Positions 12,334 through 59,000 of a stretch of 64,000 nt of DNA are shown here, one piece after another. A program made the position numbers. Each line of letters starts with the position of its first letter. The stretch's first letter is position 1. Where the stretch lies: NCBI GenBank assembly GCA_951406725.2, contig OX597816.1:160270001-160334000 (forward strand). Reading direction: 5' to 3'. This DNA comes from Octopus vulgaris (Eukaryota).

Positions 12334-15300
12334 GATACATACATACATACATACATACATACATACGACAGGCTTCTTTCAGTTTCCGTCTACCAAATCC
12401 AGAAGACTTTGGTTGGCCCAAGGCTATAATAGATGACATTTGCCCAAGGTGCCATGCAGTGGGACCGAACCCAGAACCATGTGGTTCGTAAGCAAGCTAC
12501 TTACCACACAGCCACTCCTACGTTGTCATTTCGTTTTTTGTCAAATAATTATTTCATCGCATTGTTGCAACTACTTCAGTGACACGTCTCTCTCTACTTC
12601 CATTTCTTTTGAACCTATGTTCCAACATTGGGATTCATCCAAGAACTGTCCGAGATGAGTATGTGAATGTGTGTATGTTTGCATGTGTGTGTGTTTATAC
12701 ATAAGTGTGTGCATCTGTATATGTGTGTGTGTGTGTTTTAAATACTGACTATGTCATTTTTCATATACATAAGATAGCAGTTTTGGTTTTCGCTTTGTTT
12801 TCTTTGCAAACGCACACGTTCATCCATATAAAAGCTGATCGATAAATTGATTAACGGAGTAACTAACCCATTAACTAACAATAACAATAAAGGACTGAAC
12901 CAGCGTATGTGTTTATCATTACTGGCATAACGCCCCTCCCAAGGTTCAATAGTATTTCTTTCAACACACAAATTCACATCAAGAATCTTGCAAATGAAAT
13001 ACAAACTTACTTTTATCTCAAAATCTGTTATTATTGTGGGTGTTGACATTGTTATTGAATACCTCTGCATTCCTAGACACTGAATCTTAATTAAATTTTT
13101 TTAAAATTATATTTTTCCCCCTTCCTTATTTTTCAAATGTATTAATTTATGTTTATATGCAATGTATGTGCAGTTGTATTTATACTATAAATTATATGTT
13201 AGTATTACCTGATTTGCTGATTAGCATGCTATATTTTATGTGTCCTTTATTGTTTAACATAACAGTGTGTGATTTGATGAAGTTTTAGCTAATATTTTTG
13301 ATAAGTTGAGCAATGGCTTGTGTTCACGTGCCAAAGCTATGACAAAAGCAATAAGCTGTTTGGCACTCTGATTTCCTGGTTTGATGCACACTAGCTTAGA
13401 TGGCAGATGACAATGATGACGATGATGATGATGACATCAGTGACAACGACAACAATGATGATAATGATAACTACAATGCTGCTGTTGTTGTTGTAGTTAA
13501 GCAGCAAGACGGGTAAGGGTGATTAGGTGATGGTCTAGGGCTCAGGGGCAGAAGACCCCAGACCTTGGAAAAAAAAAAACTTTGGTGTCTTGTAGTCGAG
13601 GGCTCTTTGTTGATACCCGACACCACTGGGAGGTGGCCCTCGAAGTTGCTGGAAATGGAGATCTCCAGATCCAAATTCGTGAACGGCTGCTGTTGATGCT
13701 GATGATTGCTACCATGACATGTTTTAAAGACATTTCTTAAAAATGAATGAATTTCAGTTGTTAGAATAACAGAGAATGAAAACAAAAAAGTTCCTTTGAA
13801 CTTCAATAATATATTTTGTATTTATAAAATATTACAACATATTATTTGTTTTTATTATTCGAATATATTTTTCTTACATTATTTCTATTGAATTTACCTT
13901 CTGTTTTTTTTTTTTTATGGTTTTGATGTTACCACATTTATAAAAGGAAATTTTAATACATTCTCTCTGATAACAAATACAAACATGTATTTTATACTTC
14001 TATTCCCAGATTATAAAAAAAGACAAAACCAAACAAATAACCCCTAGAACATTAACAGATGATTTGCTAAATTGATAACCATAACAATTTCTTTGTCATA
14101 CCGAATAGAGTTTCATTGAATTTTAATGAATGAATAAGGGTGTACAAACACTCAATGGGATTGTAGAATTGTTTGTAAATGATTTTCTCATACAATAGTT
14201 AATAGTGTTCAACTAATCTAGTTGAAAATGTGACATTTATGGAATCTGATATGGATTAGCATGATAGAATCTTGCTCAACAATTTTATAAACCATTCATT
14301 ATTGTTTCAAAATTTACCACTGACATTAGCCAGGCATCCTGGTCATTTATCAGCATTTAACATATATGTACGTGTGTGTGTGTGTTTGTGTGTGTGTATG
14401 TGTGTGTGTTTGTTTGTGTGTATGTGTGTGTGAGAGAGAGAAAGAGAAAGAGTATTATTTTCATATTGTTGATAGTATATTGCACATGCTAATGTGTGTA
14501 CAGCTGCTTGTAAGTGAAGGCCCGTGAGAGGAATTTTGTTAGGAGGTACAGAGTTTCTCTTGGGCCTATTTCTTTCGTGTGATTGCTAGTTTTCAATATA
14601 TGCAAATATTTTCCACAGTCCTGGTAGGTGCAGGCTTTGCTTGCTTTGCAATCCCATGGCTTTTGGTTCAATCCCACATTGGGTAACAGTCTTCTACTAT
14701 GGCCCTTACCTTGTGAGTGAATTTCTTAGATGGAAAATAAAAGTAGTACATGTGTGTGCTTGTTCACCACTTGACAGTCATTTGCGTTTTGTTTACATCC
14801 CCATAACTTAGCAGTTTGGCAAAAGAGACCAACAGAGTATATTCCAAACTTAGAATAAAGTACCGGAATTGATTTGACCAACAAAACTCTTTAAGATATT
14901 GCTCAAGCATGACCACAGTATGTGTTTTTAATTTATTTACAGCAGTAGGATGTGGTTTGAGGAAAATTTGGGTGTTGTTTCTAACAGGTCAGAGCTCTAT
15001 GTAAACACATCCTTGGTGTTTATCTATGCTAGTGATGCAGTGGTTACAGCATCGGTTTTACAATAGTGAAGTTGTGAGTTCAGTTCCCAGACTGGGGTGT
15101 GTGAAATAAAGTGTCTTGCTCAAGAACACAACATGCAGCCCGGTCCAGGATTCGAACTCACAACCTCGCGGTCATAAGCTCGATGCTCAAACCACTGAGC
15201 CATGCGCCTTCACTACCCCAACATACACTTATCTGACCCAAGCATGGAAGAGCAGATATTAAGACAATGATAATGATGTTGATGTATATGTAAGTGTGTA

Positions 15301-56000: not shown

Positions 56001-59000
56001 AATCCATACTAGTTGATATTTCTCCTTTGCTTTCATATAAACCTTCATTATCAACTGTATATATTGACTTCCTTGCCTATTATGCATGGCTATTCCAACT
56101 TGTCATTGATTATCTGAAACAGCTGTAAAGCTGAGATTTGATTACATCATCTAATTCATATGTGCAATCTTTCATATGAATACATTCCTTCTGTTTGTTA
56201 TCGTTGTTCTCCTTTCATACCACTAGCTCAATGATTATTGTTCTTATAGCTAACTTTCTCTTCCACACAACCTAATTCTTTTCAAAGAGTTGTTTGGATT
56301 TCTCTGAGCCAAACTGGTTGAATATTAATATCATGCTTACCTAAGCATTTCATAACCCATTCATATTCTTTTATTCATTTATCTGTTTCATTCATTTGAC
56401 TGTGGCCATGCTGGAGCACCGCCTGTAGTTGAACAAACTGACTTATTCTTTTGTAAGCCTAGGTACTTATTCTATCAGTCTCTTTTGCTGAACTGCTAAG
56501 TCTCAGGGACGTAAACACTCTAATGTCAGTTGTCAAACGATGGTGGAGACAGACAGACAGACACACATATACGACAGGCTTCTTTCAGTTTCCATCTACC
56601 AAATCCATTCACAAAGCTTTCGTTGGCCTGAGGCTATAGTAGAAGACACATGCCCATGCTGCCACACAATGGGATTGAACCTGGAACCATGTGGTTTGTA
56701 AGCAAGCTACTTACTACACAGACACTCCTGTGCCTATATATATATATATTCTTTTATTCTTTGACTTGTTTCTGCCAGATCAGATTGGAACCTGGCGCAG
56801 CCATCTGGTTCACCAGTCCTCAGTCAAATCGTCCAACCCATGCTAGCATAGAAAGCGGACGTTAAACGATGATGAATGTATTTTATTTTGGTCAAGTGAG
56901 TCTCTCATTACTCTCAGTTTCCTTGAGGTGCACAGAATCTTCAGGCAGTCATAACTTACCTGAAGACCTTGTGAACTTAGAGGTGAAACTCACGAGTAGC
57001 AAGAGACTCACTTGAATGAAATAAAATATATTCTTGATCTCTACTACGCCATTGAGTAATCCTTTTTTCTGACAGTAACACTAAACTTGTGTGTGTGTGT
57101 GTGTGCACATGCGCCTGCACATGTGTGTTTGTGCATGTGTGTGCATGCATATATATGCACGTGCATATGTGTGTATGCATGTGCATGTCTGTACATGTAT
57201 TGCATGAGTGCATATGTATATGCATGCATGTGTGTGCATGTGCATGCACTAGTGTGTGTGTGAGTGTGCATGCACGCATGTGTGTGTGTGTGTGTGTTTG
57301 TAAATTAGAAGGTTGTTTCTGCTCACTCTTGAAAAGTTAGACATTTTAATTTAATGTTGTTCTTGGGCAAGAAAATTGACTTTGCTTCAGTCTGAAAATG
57401 GGGTTTTGTTATATAAGAGCAGTTTTAGAAATGGCTAAACAAAGATGTTCCAACGAAAAGAAATATAACATAAAATTCAAAAGTCTTCTTTAAAACTTGA
57501 TGCTTACATCAATAGAAAATAAATAAATCTACCCCTCGATGGTACTGTTCACAGATGATCTAGCAACTATTTCTTAACAGTTTGATAAATTGATGTACTG
57601 ACTACAAAGATTCTATGAAATGCCTGTAGTAGAATAACGTCTGGATTCTGAGTTATAAATCAATACTGTATCCATCCAGCTATTCTGCTGATGGACTAAC
57701 TACAGATGCTTCTGACTTGTTATTAAAGAACAGATTGTCAATAAAGCATGGTTTGGTAGTTGGATATTATATGACAGCTTCCTTCCTTGTCGCTGTTATT
57801 GTAACAGTCATCTTGTCACCATTCTAAAACATCCTTTCTTTGTTATAGTACAGTCAATTTCTTTATTAACCATGAGGTTGAGAAAAAGAGGGGGTTGATA
57901 CGAGGACAGACAAAACAAACATTGGGGTCAGGGTATCGAATGAGACAAAATGTATGAATAAACAATTAAAATATATACAATTAGACAAGACTTTTACGGA
58001 TTCCATGGACAGCGAGGCTCACCAATGGAGAAGTTCTTAAGCAGATCAGGTCGAAAATGTCGCTAGAAGCTAGGATCACCAAGCATAGATTGACATATTT
58101 TGGTCATATTATGCGGAGAAAATCCCTGGAGAAAGGACATCATGCTCGGAATGGTCAGTGGCATGAGAGGAAGAGGCCGACCAAGAACCCACTGGCTTGA
58201 CACCATCAAGAGTGATACTGGAATGGACATAGCCAATCTGAAAGAAGCGGCCCAGGATAGAACTGACTGGAGGACACTGATCCATCGAGTAACTGAGAGT
58301 CGACTTCGACTGAGCGGATAGATAGATAGATAGATAGATAAGAATCAGTGATTTACAGAAAATGAAGCGGAGATAACGGTCGACCCCACAAACCACATAC
58401 TCACACTGAAGACTTTGCTTTCTCCTTTTTATATTCTCGTTTAAACAAGTTCTTTCACTCGCAACATACTTGCTATAGACTTCCATCTTTTACGAAGCAC
58501 ATTTTGTGACAGGCATTTCTTCTCCAGCCTTATTTTCCATTTTATGTGGAACTAGCAGCATAGCCTGGCGTTGCCCGGGTATGTAAGAGCTCCTAGTAGG
58601 CAACAACTAATCCCAATCTAGTCCTTTCCCTCTTGGGAATGAAGGCGCATGTGTAGGTTGCAATGTCTTCTCTTCACTCCCAAATAACTATCAAACAGCT
58701 ATCGATAATTCAACCCAACCAATTCCTACCAGGAAGAAATTACATTCGAGACTTTACCCCCAACTCCGCAAGTTATTCGAATACTTTTTTTGTTTAAACT
58801 TTCTTTATAACTACCACCCCAAATGTTTTACCTTAAATTTTTGACGTACCCTAAGGGTCCTCGGACGCTACTTGCAAACTCTTGGTTTATTATAAACCAC
58901 TTTTGTTGTGTGCACCAAAAAACCTTTTCCATTCGTTTGTTCAGTTTGGTCACTTTTGACTTTTTCGTTGTTGTCACTCACATTGCTGCTCACTTTTTTG

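What the first reader, a model, noticed from the sequence alone, without database searches (positions are those of the whole stretch)
12800..57800. Series of independent long fold-backs, all G-U-biased to the + strand
Seen: at least six unrelated non-repeat islands (12.8, 14.2, 17.4, 28.8, 52.1, 54.8 kb; weaker ones at 2.49, 21.9, 34.0, 57.55 kb) are imperfect inverted repeats. Their non-Watson-Crick pairs are mostly G-U when read on + (they would be A-C on -). Inference: one long + strand primary transcript (intron or lncRNA) acts as a polycistronic hairpin array, for example a small-RNA cluster or ADAR-loading scaffold. Caveat: G-U excess on + equals an excess of C>T and A>G on +, which transcription-associated mutation can produce without selection. 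AT-rich DNA also folds by chance.
Basis: partly seen in the sequence, partly recalled or inferred. Interest (0 to 1): 0.7.

Follow-up and report, generated by a model that had tools for sequence, protein, structure and literature searches.

The report
Long palindromic repeats in octopus DNA
A repeat-rich stretch of octopus-like DNA holds a handful of real long hairpin-forming palindromes, mixed with microsatellites and ordinary sequence, and their mismatches lean modestly towards one strand for reasons not yet explained.

Summary
The window is octopod DNA: every named hit of a LINE reverse-transcriptase ORF is Octopus bimaculoides. A third has real palindromes 0.7-1.4 kb downstream. The 12.8, 14.2 and 28.8 kb islands and all four weak ones fold no better than background. 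The real set is five palindromic units at four loci, with z from -6 to -44 on both strands. One is split by a SINE-like insertion. One is a mobile hairpin element with a 13-nt flanking repeat and two more copies in the window. Other fold-backs are inverted SINE-like pairs or TG/TA/CA microsatellites. The + strand G·U excess is real in the single-copy palindromes: 46 G·T to 17 A·C, or 24:4 for isolated mismatches. SINE-like private substitutions give 101:99. The excess weakens against the least favourable control (p=0.017-0.07) and disappears when all fold-backs are pooled (72:55). Transversion mismatches are not depleted, and no known RNA family or host exon was found. A polycistronic hairpin array is not shown. 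These look like independent fold-back repeats and likely ADAR substrates.

The parts
17402..17721 (.). P17: a 320-nt palindrome with ends ACTGCTGGG...CCCAGCAGT and a TA/TG-rich centre. Single copy in the window.
   Evidence: blastn self-minus hit at 66-69%. Arm alignment gives 115 matches, G·T 12, A·C 3, transversion-type 19. MFE is -120.0 (+) and -88.8 (-), with z=-10.5 and -6.2. No other copy at E<0.1 apart from microsatellite-like matches.
52077..52968 (.). P52: one long palindrome (about 240-bp stem, centre near 52710) whose left arm is interrupted by a repeat insertion.
   Evidence: Outer arms 52089-52221/52809-52941 pair at 92.5%, and the inner part 52613-52807 at 84%. With the insertion removed in silico, it is 501 nt with 223 pairs, MFE -333.5 (+) and -307.7 (-), z=-40 and -44. 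Arms are 89.6% Watson-Crick, with G·T 10, A·C 2, transversion-type 13.
52222..52612 (+). SINE-like family A copy inserted into the left arm of P52.
   Evidence: In-window repeat depth up to 16 over 52220-52614. It is one of the 20 family A copies. The arm sequence continues on either side of it.
55545..55664 (.). P55 outer palindrome, left arm.
   Evidence: Pairs with 56070-56190 over 121 nt at 78.5%, with G·T 9, A·C 5, transversion-type 11. The whole 55545-56190 folds at -266.0 (+) and -236.4 (-), z=-24.6 and -18.8.
56070..56190 (.). P55 outer palindrome, right arm.
55690..55920 (+). Mobile hairpin element: a palindrome of about 180 nt (55684-55870) followed by a conserved, non-palindromic tail of about 50 nt. 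It is inserted in the centre of the outer palindrome.
   Evidence: Arms are 78-81% complementary, with z=-15.8 and -14.5. Diverged copies lie at 5030-5112 plus 5403-5499 and at 12936-13003, all in the same orientation.
55677..55689 (+). Left copy of the exact 13-nt direct repeat AGTCAATAATGTA, a putative target-site duplication.
   Evidence: At random positions, 3.2% have a bracketing repeat of 13 nt or more, a figure inflated by microsatellites. Homology between copies does not extend into the flanks (p=0.11, 0.63, 0.39).
55921..55933 (+). Right copy of the 13-nt direct repeat.
56868..57039 (.). P56.9: a 172-nt palindrome, single copy in the window. It abuts a family B repeat fragment on its left and a TG-rich microsatellite on its right.
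   Evidence: blastn at 73.9%. z=-10.7 and -9.2. G·T 7, A·C 4, transversion-type 7.
5030..5499 (+). Second copy of the hairpin-plus-tail family. The left arm is 5030-5112 and the right arm plus tail is 5403-5499, with about 290 nt of unrelated repeat sequence in the loop.
   Evidence: Arms give G·T 4, A·C 3, transversion-type 2.
12936..13003 (+). Third, decayed copy of the same family (tail plus part of the right arm).
15038..15197 (.). Fold-back that looks like two head-to-head SINE-head-like segments.
   Evidence: MFE -84.6 (+) and -77.0 (-) for 15001-15200. 66% complementary. G·T 8, A·C 7. The 'SINE head' label is my reading of box-B-like motifs, which are recalled.
25404..25550 (.). Fold-back made of two inverted family C repeat heads.
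   Evidence: arms hit the family C copies at 48539, 2616 and 24079. G·T 5, A·C 4.
53025..53191 (+). Microsatellite hairpin of the form (TG)n-(TA)n-(CA)n. Similar ones lie at 55028-55096 and 57093-57232.
   Evidence: Sub-threshold Rfam matches to mir-5014, mir-466 and mir-297 (at most 62 bits against gathering scores of 85-101). Sequence read.
423..748 (.). Single-copy unit with 57-nt terminal inverted repeats (89%) around a 214-nt core. Its mismatch polarity is opposite (G·T 0, A·C 2).

Best explanation
The 'series' is a mixed set of fold-back-forming repeats in a repeat-rich, apparently non-coding stretch of an octopod genome. It is not an organised hairpin array.

Shown: there are five real long palindromic units at four loci. 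They arose independently. They share no sequence with each other. One carries a later SINE-like insertion. One is a member of a dispersed hairpin-plus-tail family and sits, with a 13-nt flanking duplication, inside an older palindrome. The remaining 'islands' are inverted SINE-like pairs, TG/TA/CA microsatellite hairpins, or ordinary sequence.

Inferred: these are mobile or duplicative fold-back elements. Where they are transcribed they fold into 80-220-bp near-perfect dsRNA, and in octopus such RNA would be passively hyper-edited by ADAR. The + strand wobble polarity of the single-copy palindromes (46:17; 24:4 isolated) is most likely the mark of a strand-asymmetric process acting across the region. 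The leading candidate is transcription of the + strand, which also fits the uniform T>A skew. Under it, transition mismatches that read A·C on the + strand are lost or arise less often than those that read G·U. The step that removes them is not identified. I put about 0.3 on the polarity being a small-sample or ascertainment effect.
For: Organism: all named hits of the reverse-transcriptase ORF are Octopus bimaculoides, up to 80% identity.

Real palindromes: z from -6 to -44 on both strands. The real window gives 11 near inverted hits against 0-2 in each of 15 shuffles.

Independence and mobility:
- No cross-matches between the units.
- A SINE-like family A copy lies inside the P52 arm.
- A 13-nt exact flanking repeat brackets the 55.7-kb hairpin, which has three family copies, and their homology stops at the element ends.

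Mixed nature of the rest: about 25% of the window has in-window repeat copies. There are inverted SINE-like pairs at 36.1-37.2, 27.1-28.3, 35.0-36.5 and 38.5-39.6 kb. The strongest strand-asymmetric folds are microsatellites.

No function-type signal: Rfam gives 0 hits at gathering score and only microsatellite or generic hairpin matches below it. Pfam finds only RVT_1 plus PHD in the 296 ORFs scanned. The ts:tv ratio in the stems equals the control (63:57 against 200:204, p=0.6).

Polarity: 46:17 and 24:4 against 101:99. T>A in all eight bins of unique sequence.

Literature, from passages of PMC5625713 read: O. bimaculoides has an exceptionally high hyper-editing signal and an exceptionally high fraction of loci able to form long near-perfect dsRNA. 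A palindromic ~200-bp Harbinger repeat is the most edited family in Xenopus.
Against: Four of the five units have no second copy in 64 kb and no recognisable target-site duplication. Their longest bracketing repeats are 5-7 nt, against a null mean of 7.1. Their mobility is therefore inferred and not shown.

A protein-level search with a frame through the P52 arm found no other copies, though this test has low sensitivity.

No exon was found, so the direction of transcription is not established.

The SINE-like control shows no transition asymmetry (101:99). A plain transcription-associated mutation bias therefore does not explain the polarity by itself.

The polarity weakens against young distant pairs (101:63; p=0.017 isolated, p=0.07 all). 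It also weakens when the sixth unit is added, and it is absent from the other fold-backs (72:55 pooled).

The window was picked because a reader saw this bias, so the p-values are optimistic.
Confidence: 0.55

Rival explanations
1. One + strand primary transcript carries the hairpins as a functional polycistronic array (a small-RNA cluster, hpRNA-like genes or an ADAR scaffold), and selection keeps the + strand stems paired while tolerating G·U.
For: Five of five single-copy palindromes lean to G·U on +. Every one folds better on +. The neutral SINE-like control is flat at 101:99. In the one palindrome that could be polarised, the six derived G·T pairs arose by both A>G (3) and C>T (3), as wobble-tolerant selection predicts. 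T>A skew is present throughout.
Against: Transversion mismatches destabilise a stem as much as A·C does, yet they are not depleted (63:57 against 200:204, p=0.6; isolated A·C:transversion 4:38 but G·T:transversion 24:38). One stem carries a 391-bp insertion, and another holds a mobile element at its centre. Stems of 90-240 bp are far longer than pre-miRNAs, and no Rfam family passes its gathering score. Five of the ten listed islands are at background. Inverted SINE-like pairs in the same region show no polarity (82:74).
Confidence: 0.1
2. The polarity is chance plus ascertainment. A few dozen mismatches in five units happen to lean one way in a window that was chosen because a reader noticed the lean.
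For: The sample is small (63 transition-type mismatches, 28 of them isolated). Five of five units with the same sign is only p=0.06 two-sided. Against young distant pairs (101:63) the full count gives p=0.07. With the sixth qualifying unit it gives p=0.22 (all) and p=0.06 (isolated). All fold-backs pooled give 72:55, p=0.16. The second copy of the hairpin family shows 4:3.
Against: Fisher tests against the SINE-like control give p=0.0004 (isolated) and p=0.002 (all). Against near inverted SINE-like pairs they give p=0.0003 (isolated) and p=0.006 (all). The unit set was defined by a search that does not favour either strand.
Confidence: 0.3
3. An ADAR footprint written into DNA. The hairpin elements spread through an RNA copy. 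ADAR turns A·C into I·C and A:U into I·U in that RNA, and reverse transcription fixes these edits as G. This removes A·C and adds G·U on the sense strand without touching transversion mismatches.
For: The pattern is a deficit of A·C with transversions untouched (4:38 against 97:200, p=0.002). The G of G·T pairs is preceded by G in 1 of 45 cases, against 28 of 173 for G in G:C pairs (p=0.012) and 14 of 88 for neutral A>G changes (p=0.019). Depletion of G upstream of edited sites is reported for all species in PMC5625713. The 13-nt flanking repeat of the 55.7-kb element is of the length usual for reverse-transcribed insertions (a recalled convention). The octopus has very high editing activity.
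Against: Polarised G·T pairs are 3 A>G and 3 C>T, not all A>G. Differences between family copies show no purine-transition excess (14 against 10). The full 5'-neighbour profile does not differ from the G background (chi-square p=0.064). There is no enrichment of A downstream, which is the invertebrate preference in PMC5625713: 10 of 45 against 27% in the background. Four of the five units show no retroposon hallmarks. The preference of ADAR for A·C mismatches is recalled, not tested.
Confidence: 0.08
4. Strand-specific DNA repair. One DNA strand of the region is single-stranded more often, for example as the lagging-strand template. Its palindromes fold back, and G·T mismatches in those DNA hairpins are corrected to G:C by G·T-specific repair. 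If the - strand is the one that folds, sites that read A·C on + are erased.
For: This explains a selective loss of one transition-mismatch class with transversions untouched. It explains a common polarity over 40 kb without needing any transcript. The region has a uniform strand asymmetry (T>A in 8 of 8 bins; A>T 43 against T>A 21 in SINE-like private changes, p=0.008).
Against: No direct evidence. G·T glycosylases and their preferences are recalled, not tested. Cruciform extrusion would expose both strands equally. Inverted SINE-like pairs 300-800 nt apart show no polarity (82:74).
Confidence: 0.1

Closest known systems
Palindromic Harbinger-type MITEs of Xenopus tropicalis, the most hyper-edited repeat family in that species (PMC5625713, passages read)
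   Same: Interspersed elements a few hundred bp long whose whole length is a near-perfect palindrome. A single copy folds into tight dsRNA without needing a neighbouring inverted partner. The host here (octopus) is the other species that paper singles out for abundant dsRNA-forming loci.
   Different: No family consensus, transposase relative or 3-bp target duplication could be shown here. Four of the five units are single-copy in the window. One family has a non-palindromic tail and a 13-nt flanking repeat, which does not fit a cut-and-paste element.
Inverted Alu or SINE pairs as ADAR substrates (recalled)
   Same: The window holds four inverted SINE-like pairs 290-830 nt apart and two head-to-head SINE-head fold-backs. 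These would form dsRNA if transcribed.
   Different: The main palindromes are not made of two copies of an interspersed repeat. The SINE-like pairs show no wobble polarity (82:74).
Drosophila hpRNA loci, which are long inverted repeats processed into endo-siRNAs (recalled)
   Same: Hairpins with stems of hundreds of bp and short loops, lying in non-coding DNA.
   Different: hpRNAs derive from, and target, protein-coding genes. No coding similarity was found in the arms (Pfam; one arm ORF). No small-RNA data are available.
Microsatellite-derived miRNA clusters: the mir-297/466/467/669 families, recalled as lying in the mouse Sfmbt2 intron
   Same: The TG/TA/CA hairpins at 53.0, 55.03 and 57.1 kb give their best Rfam matches to mir-297, mir-466 and mir-5014. 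They fold far better on the TG-rich strand.
   Different: All matches are well below the gathering scores (at most 62 bits against 85-101). They reflect repeat composition and not homology. TG-type and CA-type tracts occur on both strands (445 against 800 nt on +).
MITE-derived miRNA genes such as MADE1/miR-548 (recalled)
   Same: Palindromic mobile elements can be taken up as hairpin RNA genes.
   Different: Those hairpins are about 80 nt. The ones here are 170-500 nt, and nothing shows they are processed.

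Membership tests
Polycistronic miRNA / small-RNA hairpin cluster | Hairpins match a curated precursor family at or above its gathering score | tested here: not met
   Rfam gives 0 matches at gathering score over the whole window. In E-value mode there are only sub-threshold microsatellite or generic hairpin matches at 51.5-57.5 kb, and 0 matches at 14.8-18 kb.
Polycistronic miRNA / small-RNA hairpin cluster | Precursor-sized hairpins (about 55-90 nt) with imperfect stems | tested here: not met
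   The real units have stems of 80-240 bp. The weak islands have ordinary hairpins of 13-31 pairs with z at background.
Polycistronic miRNA / small-RNA hairpin cluster | One transcript spanning the hairpins, with mature small RNAs | not testable with these tools
   No RNA-seq or small-RNA data. The only indirect evidence is T>A skew in 8 of 8 bins.
Polycistronic miRNA / small-RNA hairpin cluster | Cross-species conservation with covariation in the stems | not testable with these tools
MITE / fold-back DNA transposon | Terminal inverted repeats | tested here: met
   All units are palindromic to their ends. The 423-748 unit has 57-nt terminal repeats at 89%.
MITE / fold-back DNA transposon | Short target-site duplication (2-10 bp) at the ends | tested here: inconclusive
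   The longest bracketing direct repeats are 5-7 nt at P17, P52, P55 outer and P56.9, which equals the null mean of 7.1. Palindromic 2-4-nt duplications cannot be told apart from an extension of the arm.
MITE / fold-back DNA transposon | Many dispersed copies of one family | tested here: inconclusive
   In the window, 0 further copies for four units and 3 copies for the hairpin-plus-tail family. Genome-wide copy number is not testable. One protein-level attempt found nothing.
Reverse-transcribed (SINE-like) retroposon, considered for the hairpin-plus-tail family only | Long target-site duplication (about 7-20 bp) outside the conserved core | tested here: met
   An exact 13-nt repeat flanks 55690-55920. 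Homology between copies stops at the core ends. It was not seen at the 5.0-kb copy (p=0.26), so it is met in 1 of 2 full copies.
Reverse-transcribed (SINE-like) retroposon, considered for the hairpin-plus-tail family only | Internal Pol III promoter or tRNA-like head, and an A-rich or simple-repeat 3' tail | tested here: not met
   ARAGORN finds 0 tRNA-like genes in the window. Neither end of the element carries an A-rich tail (sequence read). Box A/B likeness was only judged by eye against recalled motifs.
hpRNA (endo-siRNA hairpin gene) | Arms derived from a protein-coding target gene | tested here: inconclusive
   No Pfam domain in any ORF overlapping the palindromes. One arm ORF has no homologue candidates. 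Short non-coding targets would be missed.
ADAR hyper-editing substrate | Long, near-perfect intramolecular duplex | tested here: met
   P52 has 223 pairs in 501 nt. P55 has 248 pairs in 646 nt. P17 folds at -120 kcal/mol.
ADAR hyper-editing substrate | Transcribed, with clustered A-to-G mismatches in RNA reads | not testable with these tools
   No RNA data are available.

The most novel reading that the evidence does not exclude
Long palindromes in the octopus genome carry a heritable strand polarity: a deficit of A·C relative to G·U mismatches on the transcribed-sense strand. It would be written either by ADAR-edited hairpin RNA being copied back into DNA, or by wobble-tolerant selection or repair acting on self-paired transcripts. 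If general, the polarity would mark which strand of any palindrome is read. It would also show that the cephalopod editing system, or the dsRNA it acts on, shapes genome sequence outside coding regions.
Probability: 0.12. Interest if true: 0.7.

Novelty: new member of a known kind. Interest (0 to 1): 0.35.

Why it matters
Octopus is the animal with the strongest known hyper-editing signal and an unusually high load of loci that can form dsRNA (PMC5625713). The elements that supply that dsRNA are poorly described, however. One literature search for octopus MITEs or palindromic transposons listed no such paper among the 8 shown of 151 (listing only, so this does not show that none is in print).

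This window gives concrete examples: fully palindromic units of 170-500 nt, and a hairpin-plus-tail family with a long flanking duplication.

The mismatch polarity is only a lead. It can be checked cheaply and decisively on the whole assembly. If it held, it would be a sequence-only marker of strand-specific processing of hairpins.

As a claim of a functional hairpin array, the finding does not hold up.

Tried and rejected
1. A 300-nt sliding fold hit the time limit. I replaced it with 200-nt windows.

2. Rfam at gathering score and in E-value mode identified nothing.

3. Pfam on 296 of 311 ORFs of at least 55 aa found only RVT_1 plus PHD at 18822-19226 (-). Fifteen ORFs from 61.5-64 kb were not scanned. 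With no host exon and no transposase, the gene and its strand stay unknown.

4. ARAGORN found 0 tRNA-like genes.

5. ADAR neighbour test. The first contrast, against A's in A:T pairs, looked striking (A/T at -1 in 41 of 45; p=7e-7). It was the wrong background. Against G's in G:C pairs the profile is not different (chi-square p=0.064). Only the lack of G at -1 remains (p=0.012-0.019, post hoc).

6. Transcription-associated mutation as the sole cause of the polarity is rejected, because SINE-like private transitions are 101:99 and CpG sites add only 9 changes.

7. Simple selection for stem stability is rejected as sufficient, because transversion mismatches are not depleted.

8. A suspected relative of the 15.0-kb fold-back at 5.96-6.04 kb is one SINE-head-like copy and not a palindrome.

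9. No significant flanking repeat at the 5.0-kb hairpin copy.

10. A frame through the P52 arm was used as a protein query to find other genomic copies. It returned no candidates, and the test has low sensitivity.

11. Literature. Searches were seen as listings only. Of those papers, only PMC5625713 was opened, by passage search. Its supplements, including the figure on dsRNA abundance, were not looked at.

12. Left unchecked for want of data: genome-wide copy number, orthologous loci, covariation, stranded RNA-seq, small RNAs and editing.

Full report
WHAT THE WINDOW IS. The window has 64,000 bases and no N. It is 37% G+C, has CpG observed/expected of 0.28, and has T>A (21,131 against 18,895) with G about equal to C. 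About a quarter of it has further copies inside the window. These fall into three interspersed families of 200-430 bp with 20, 15 and 5 copies. I call them SINE-like from their size and copy number; no repeat library was available to name them. A reverse-transcriptase plus PHD-finger ORF at 18822-19226 (- strand) is the only Pfam-supported coding remnant among the 296 of 311 ORFs of at least 55 aa that I scanned. Every named homologue of it is from Octopus bimaculoides, at up to 80% identity. The window is therefore from an octopus or a close relative. No host exon was found, so the sequence itself does not tell which strand, if any, is transcribed.

ARE THE FOLD-BACKS THERE? I searched without favouring either strand, using blastn of the window against its own reverse strand. 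I also folded 1277 overlapping 200-nt windows on both strands.

Two of the six main islands are confirmed at the stated coordinates:
- 17402-17721 is a 320-nt palindrome with z=-11.6 on + and -6.1 on -. The folding tool gave -10.5 and -6.2.
- 52089-52221 pairs with 52809-52941 over 133 nt at 92.5%.

The other main islands:
- At 54.8 kb there is nothing (z=+0.4/-0.2). A TG/TA microsatellite hairpin lies at 55033-55096, and real palindromes lie at 55545-56190.
- At 12.8 kb a TG-rich tract faces a CA/TA tract 300 nt away at 69% identity, and a decayed repeat fragment is present.
- At 14.2 and 28.8 kb there is no inverted repeat longer than 42 and 32 nt respectively. The z-scores are -2.7/-0.5 and -1.6/+0.8.

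The four weak islands give z+ of -0.06, -3.4, -0.5 and -0.2. In 64 evenly spaced windows the mean z is -0.53 on + and -0.45 on -. Of those windows, 19% reach -1.6, 8% reach -2.7 and 6% reach -3.4 on +. The longest unbranched hairpins in the weak islands have 13-31 pairs, which is ordinary.

As a class, long inverted repeats are far above chance. The real window gives 11 near hits (best 262 bits), against 0-2 in each of 15 block-wise dinucleotide shuffles (best 50 bits).

ANATOMY.

P52 (52077-52968) is one palindrome with a stem of about 240 bp. Its left arm is cut by a family A repeat at 52222-52612, and the arm sequence resumes exactly on the far side. With that insertion left out in silico, it is a 501-nt hairpin of 223 pairs. 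The MFE is -333.5 kcal/mol on + and -307.7 on -, with z near -40 on both.

P55 is two nested things. The first is an outer palindrome (55545-55664 against 56070-56190, 78.5%). The second sits at its centre: a 231-nt element (55690-55920) made of a hairpin of about 180 nt and a non-palindromic tail of about 50 nt. An exact 13-nt direct repeat brackets this inner element.

The inner element has two diverged relatives in the same orientation. One is at 5030-5112 plus 5403-5499, with unrelated repeat sequence in its loop. The other is at 12936-13003. Similarity between the copies stops at the hairpin start and at the tail end (flank comparisons p=0.11, 0.63, 0.39). The 13-nt repeat therefore lies outside the shared core and behaves like a target-site duplication. 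The 5.0-kb copy shows no such repeat (p=0.26).

P17 and P56.9 are simple palindromes. P17, P52, P55 outer and P56.9 have no further copy in the window at E<0.1. They also have no bracketing repeat longer than chance: 5-7 nt against a null mean of 7.1.

The fold-backs at 15038-15197 and 25404-25550 look like head-to-head repeat heads. Four inverted pairs of SINE-like copies lie 290-830 nt apart.

No Rfam family reaches its gathering score anywhere. Below threshold, the best matches are mir-297, mir-466 and mir-5014 on TG/TA/CA microsatellite hairpins (at most 62 bits against gathering scores of 85-101). The real palindromes get only generic hairpin matches at a quarter to half of the gathering score.

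THE G-U POLARITY. In a stem, a transition in one arm leaves either a G·T or an A·C pair on the + strand. The first is a wobble pair in + strand RNA, and the second is a wobble pair in - strand RNA.

In the five single-copy palindromic units I count G·T 46, A·C 17 and transversion-type 57. A second alignment gives 45 G·T. Counting only isolated mismatches, flanked by matches on both sides, removes tandem events. That gives 24:4:38, split 7:1, 4:1, 3:1, 8:1 and 2:0 across the units.

Three neutral controls were run.
These give 101 G·T-making, 99 A·C-making and 204 transversions, or 98:97:200 without CpG sites.
(ii) Inverted repeat copies more than 1 kb apart, which cannot fold on each other. These give 2128:1751:2053, or 1119:935:1195 isolated. 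These pairs share copies and are not independent.
(iii) The four near inverted SINE-like pairs, which give 82:74, or 37:43:48 isolated.

The stems differ from control (i) at p=0.002 (all) and p=0.0004 (isolated). They differ from (ii) at p=0.005 and p=0.0008, and from (iii) at p=0.006 and p=0.0003.

RESULTS THAT WEAKEN THE POLARITY.
- Young distant pairs (at least 85% identity, 29 pairs) give 101:63. Against that fraction the stems reach only p=0.07 (all) and p=0.010 (isolated; p=0.017 by Fisher's test on the counts).
- A sixth single-copy unit that passed the same detection filter (423-479/693-748) has 0:2. With it the totals are 46:19 and 24:6. That gives p=0.004 and 0.003 against control (i), and p=0.22 and 0.06 against the young pairs.
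- The other fold-backs give 8:7, 5:4, 4:3 and 9:22. Everything pooled is 72:55, p=0.16.
- The window reached me because a reader saw the lean, so all these p-values are optimistic.

Across the window, the + strand folds slightly better. It is the more stable strand in 186 of 320 non-overlapping windows, with a mean difference of -1.25 +/- 0.70 kcal/mol. However, z+ is below z- in only 37 of 64 windows (p=0.26). The biggest strand differences are microsatellites, and they occur on both strands:
- Better on +: 22251-22450 (-107.8 against -36.3).
- Better on -: 34601-34800 (-40.5 against -79.2) and 43651-43850 (-26.3 against -73.9).
So "all G-U-biased to +" is true of the single-copy palindromes but not of fold-backs in general.

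WHAT COULD WRITE SUCH A POLARITY?

Plain transcription-associated mutation does not fit, because the SINE-like copies around the palindromes show no transition asymmetry. They do show A>T 43 against T>A 21 (p=0.008), which matches the T>A skew seen in all eight 8-kb bins of unique sequence. The region therefore is strand-asymmetric, but not in the right substitution class.

Selection for a paired + strand stem does not fit well either. Transversion mismatches should be purged along with A·C. Yet ts:tv in the stems (63:57) equals the control (200:204, p=0.6). Among isolated mismatches only A·C is short (A·C:tv 4:38 against 97:200, p=0.002), while G·T:tv does not differ (24:38 against 98:200, p=0.38).

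An ADAR footprint carried back into DNA would give exactly that shape: A·C becomes G:C and A:U becomes G·U. The G of G·T pairs is preceded by G in only 1 of 45 cases, against 28 of 173 and 14 of 88 in two backgrounds (p=0.012 and 0.019). Upstream G depletion is the editing motif common to all species in PMC5625713. Three results count against this idea:
- My first, much stronger contrast used the wrong background. Against the right one the whole profile is not different (p=0.064).
- In the one hairpin that can be polarised with a family outgroup, the six derived G·T pairs are 3 A>G and 3 C>T.
- Differences between family copies show no purine-transition excess (14 against 10).

A strand-specific DNA repair of G·T in fold-backs of one strand would also fit the shape, but it has no direct support here. 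I therefore treat the cause as open.

VERDICT. The most likely account (confidence about 0.55) is that these are independent fold-back repeats of an octopus genome. At least one family is demonstrably dispersed and carries a long flanking duplication. One unit is tolerant of a 391-bp insertion. They sit among SINE-like pairs and microsatellites.

If transcribed they would be the long near-perfect dsRNA that, according to PMC5625713 (passages), is unusually abundant in O. bimaculoides and goes with its very high hyper-editing. The closest described analogue is the palindromic Harbinger repeat of Xenopus from the same paper.

The + strand wobble polarity is the one part that survives as a modest, unexplained lead.

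RECALLED ITEMS, NOT TESTED BY ANY CALL: the preference of ADAR for A·C mismatches; Drosophila hpRNAs; MADE1/miR-548; the mouse mir-297/466 cluster; T>A on the sense strand of vertebrate introns; G·T glycosylases; and the usual lengths of target-site duplications.

Noticed in passing
55690-55920; 5030-5112 + 5403-5499; 12936-13003: A dispersed family made of a hairpin of about 180 nt plus a conserved non-palindromic tail of about 50 nt (core TTTCAACACAYGAT.TCAGATCAA.TCACTT). All three copies have the same orientation. The best-kept copy is flanked by an exact 13-nt direct repeat. It has no terminal inverted repeats and no A-rich tail, so it fits neither a classic MITE nor a classic SINE.
   Followed up: partly
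52222-52612: The family A repeat inserted in the P52 arm has 0 private transitions and 6 private transversions against the in-window consensus. It therefore looks young, and it gives a minimum age order: palindrome first, then the insertion.
   Followed up: partly
whole window (40 SINE-like copies): Private substitutions polarised to the + strand show A>T 43 against T>A 21 (p=0.008), while transitions are balanced at 101:99. This matches the T>A skew in all eight bins of unique sequence. It suggests a strand-asymmetric transversion process, or selection for U-rich transcripts.
   Followed up: partly
44796-45021: A low-complexity (trinucleotide-rich) palindrome that folds better on the - strand (-79.7 on +, -93.6 on -). 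Its mismatch polarity is opposite to the others (G·T 9, A·C 22).
   Followed up: no
15038-15197 and 25404-25550: Two fold-backs that look like head-to-head copies of SINE-head-like segments with box-B-like motifs (motif recalled). The arms of the second match family C copies. ARAGORN calls no tRNA here.
   Followed up: partly
36121-36511 / 36804-37192; 27118-27360 / 28075-28314; 34985-35336 / 36141-36516; 38460-38631 / 39461-39633: Four inverted pairs of SINE-like copies 290-830 nt apart (68-80% complementary over 175-405 nt). They are potential dsRNA if co-transcribed and show no wobble polarity (82:74).
   Followed up: partly
423-748: A single-copy unit with 57-nt terminal inverted repeats (89%) around a 214-nt core that contains a SINE-head-like segment. 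The first 11 nt of its left arm recur 19 nt beyond its right arm.
   Followed up: no
18422-19226 (-) and 48911-50379 (-): LINE remnants. The first has RVT_1 plus a PHD finger by Pfam. The second is a run of open frames of 90-140 aa that look like reverse-transcriptase C-terminal parts but gave no Pfam match.
   Followed up: partly
1400-1745, 22237-22540, 53025-53191, 55028-55096, 57093-57340: Compound TG/TA/CA microsatellites that fold into strong hairpins, mostly on the TG-rich strand. They account for every sub-threshold miRNA-family match (mir-297, mir-466, mir-5014).
   Followed up: yes
56772-56886 / 56868-57039: The 56.9-kb palindrome starts inside, or directly against, a family B repeat fragment. 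The 5.0-kb hairpin copy also lies just downstream of a family B copy (4664-4980). This may be a composite element or an insertion preference.
   Followed up: no
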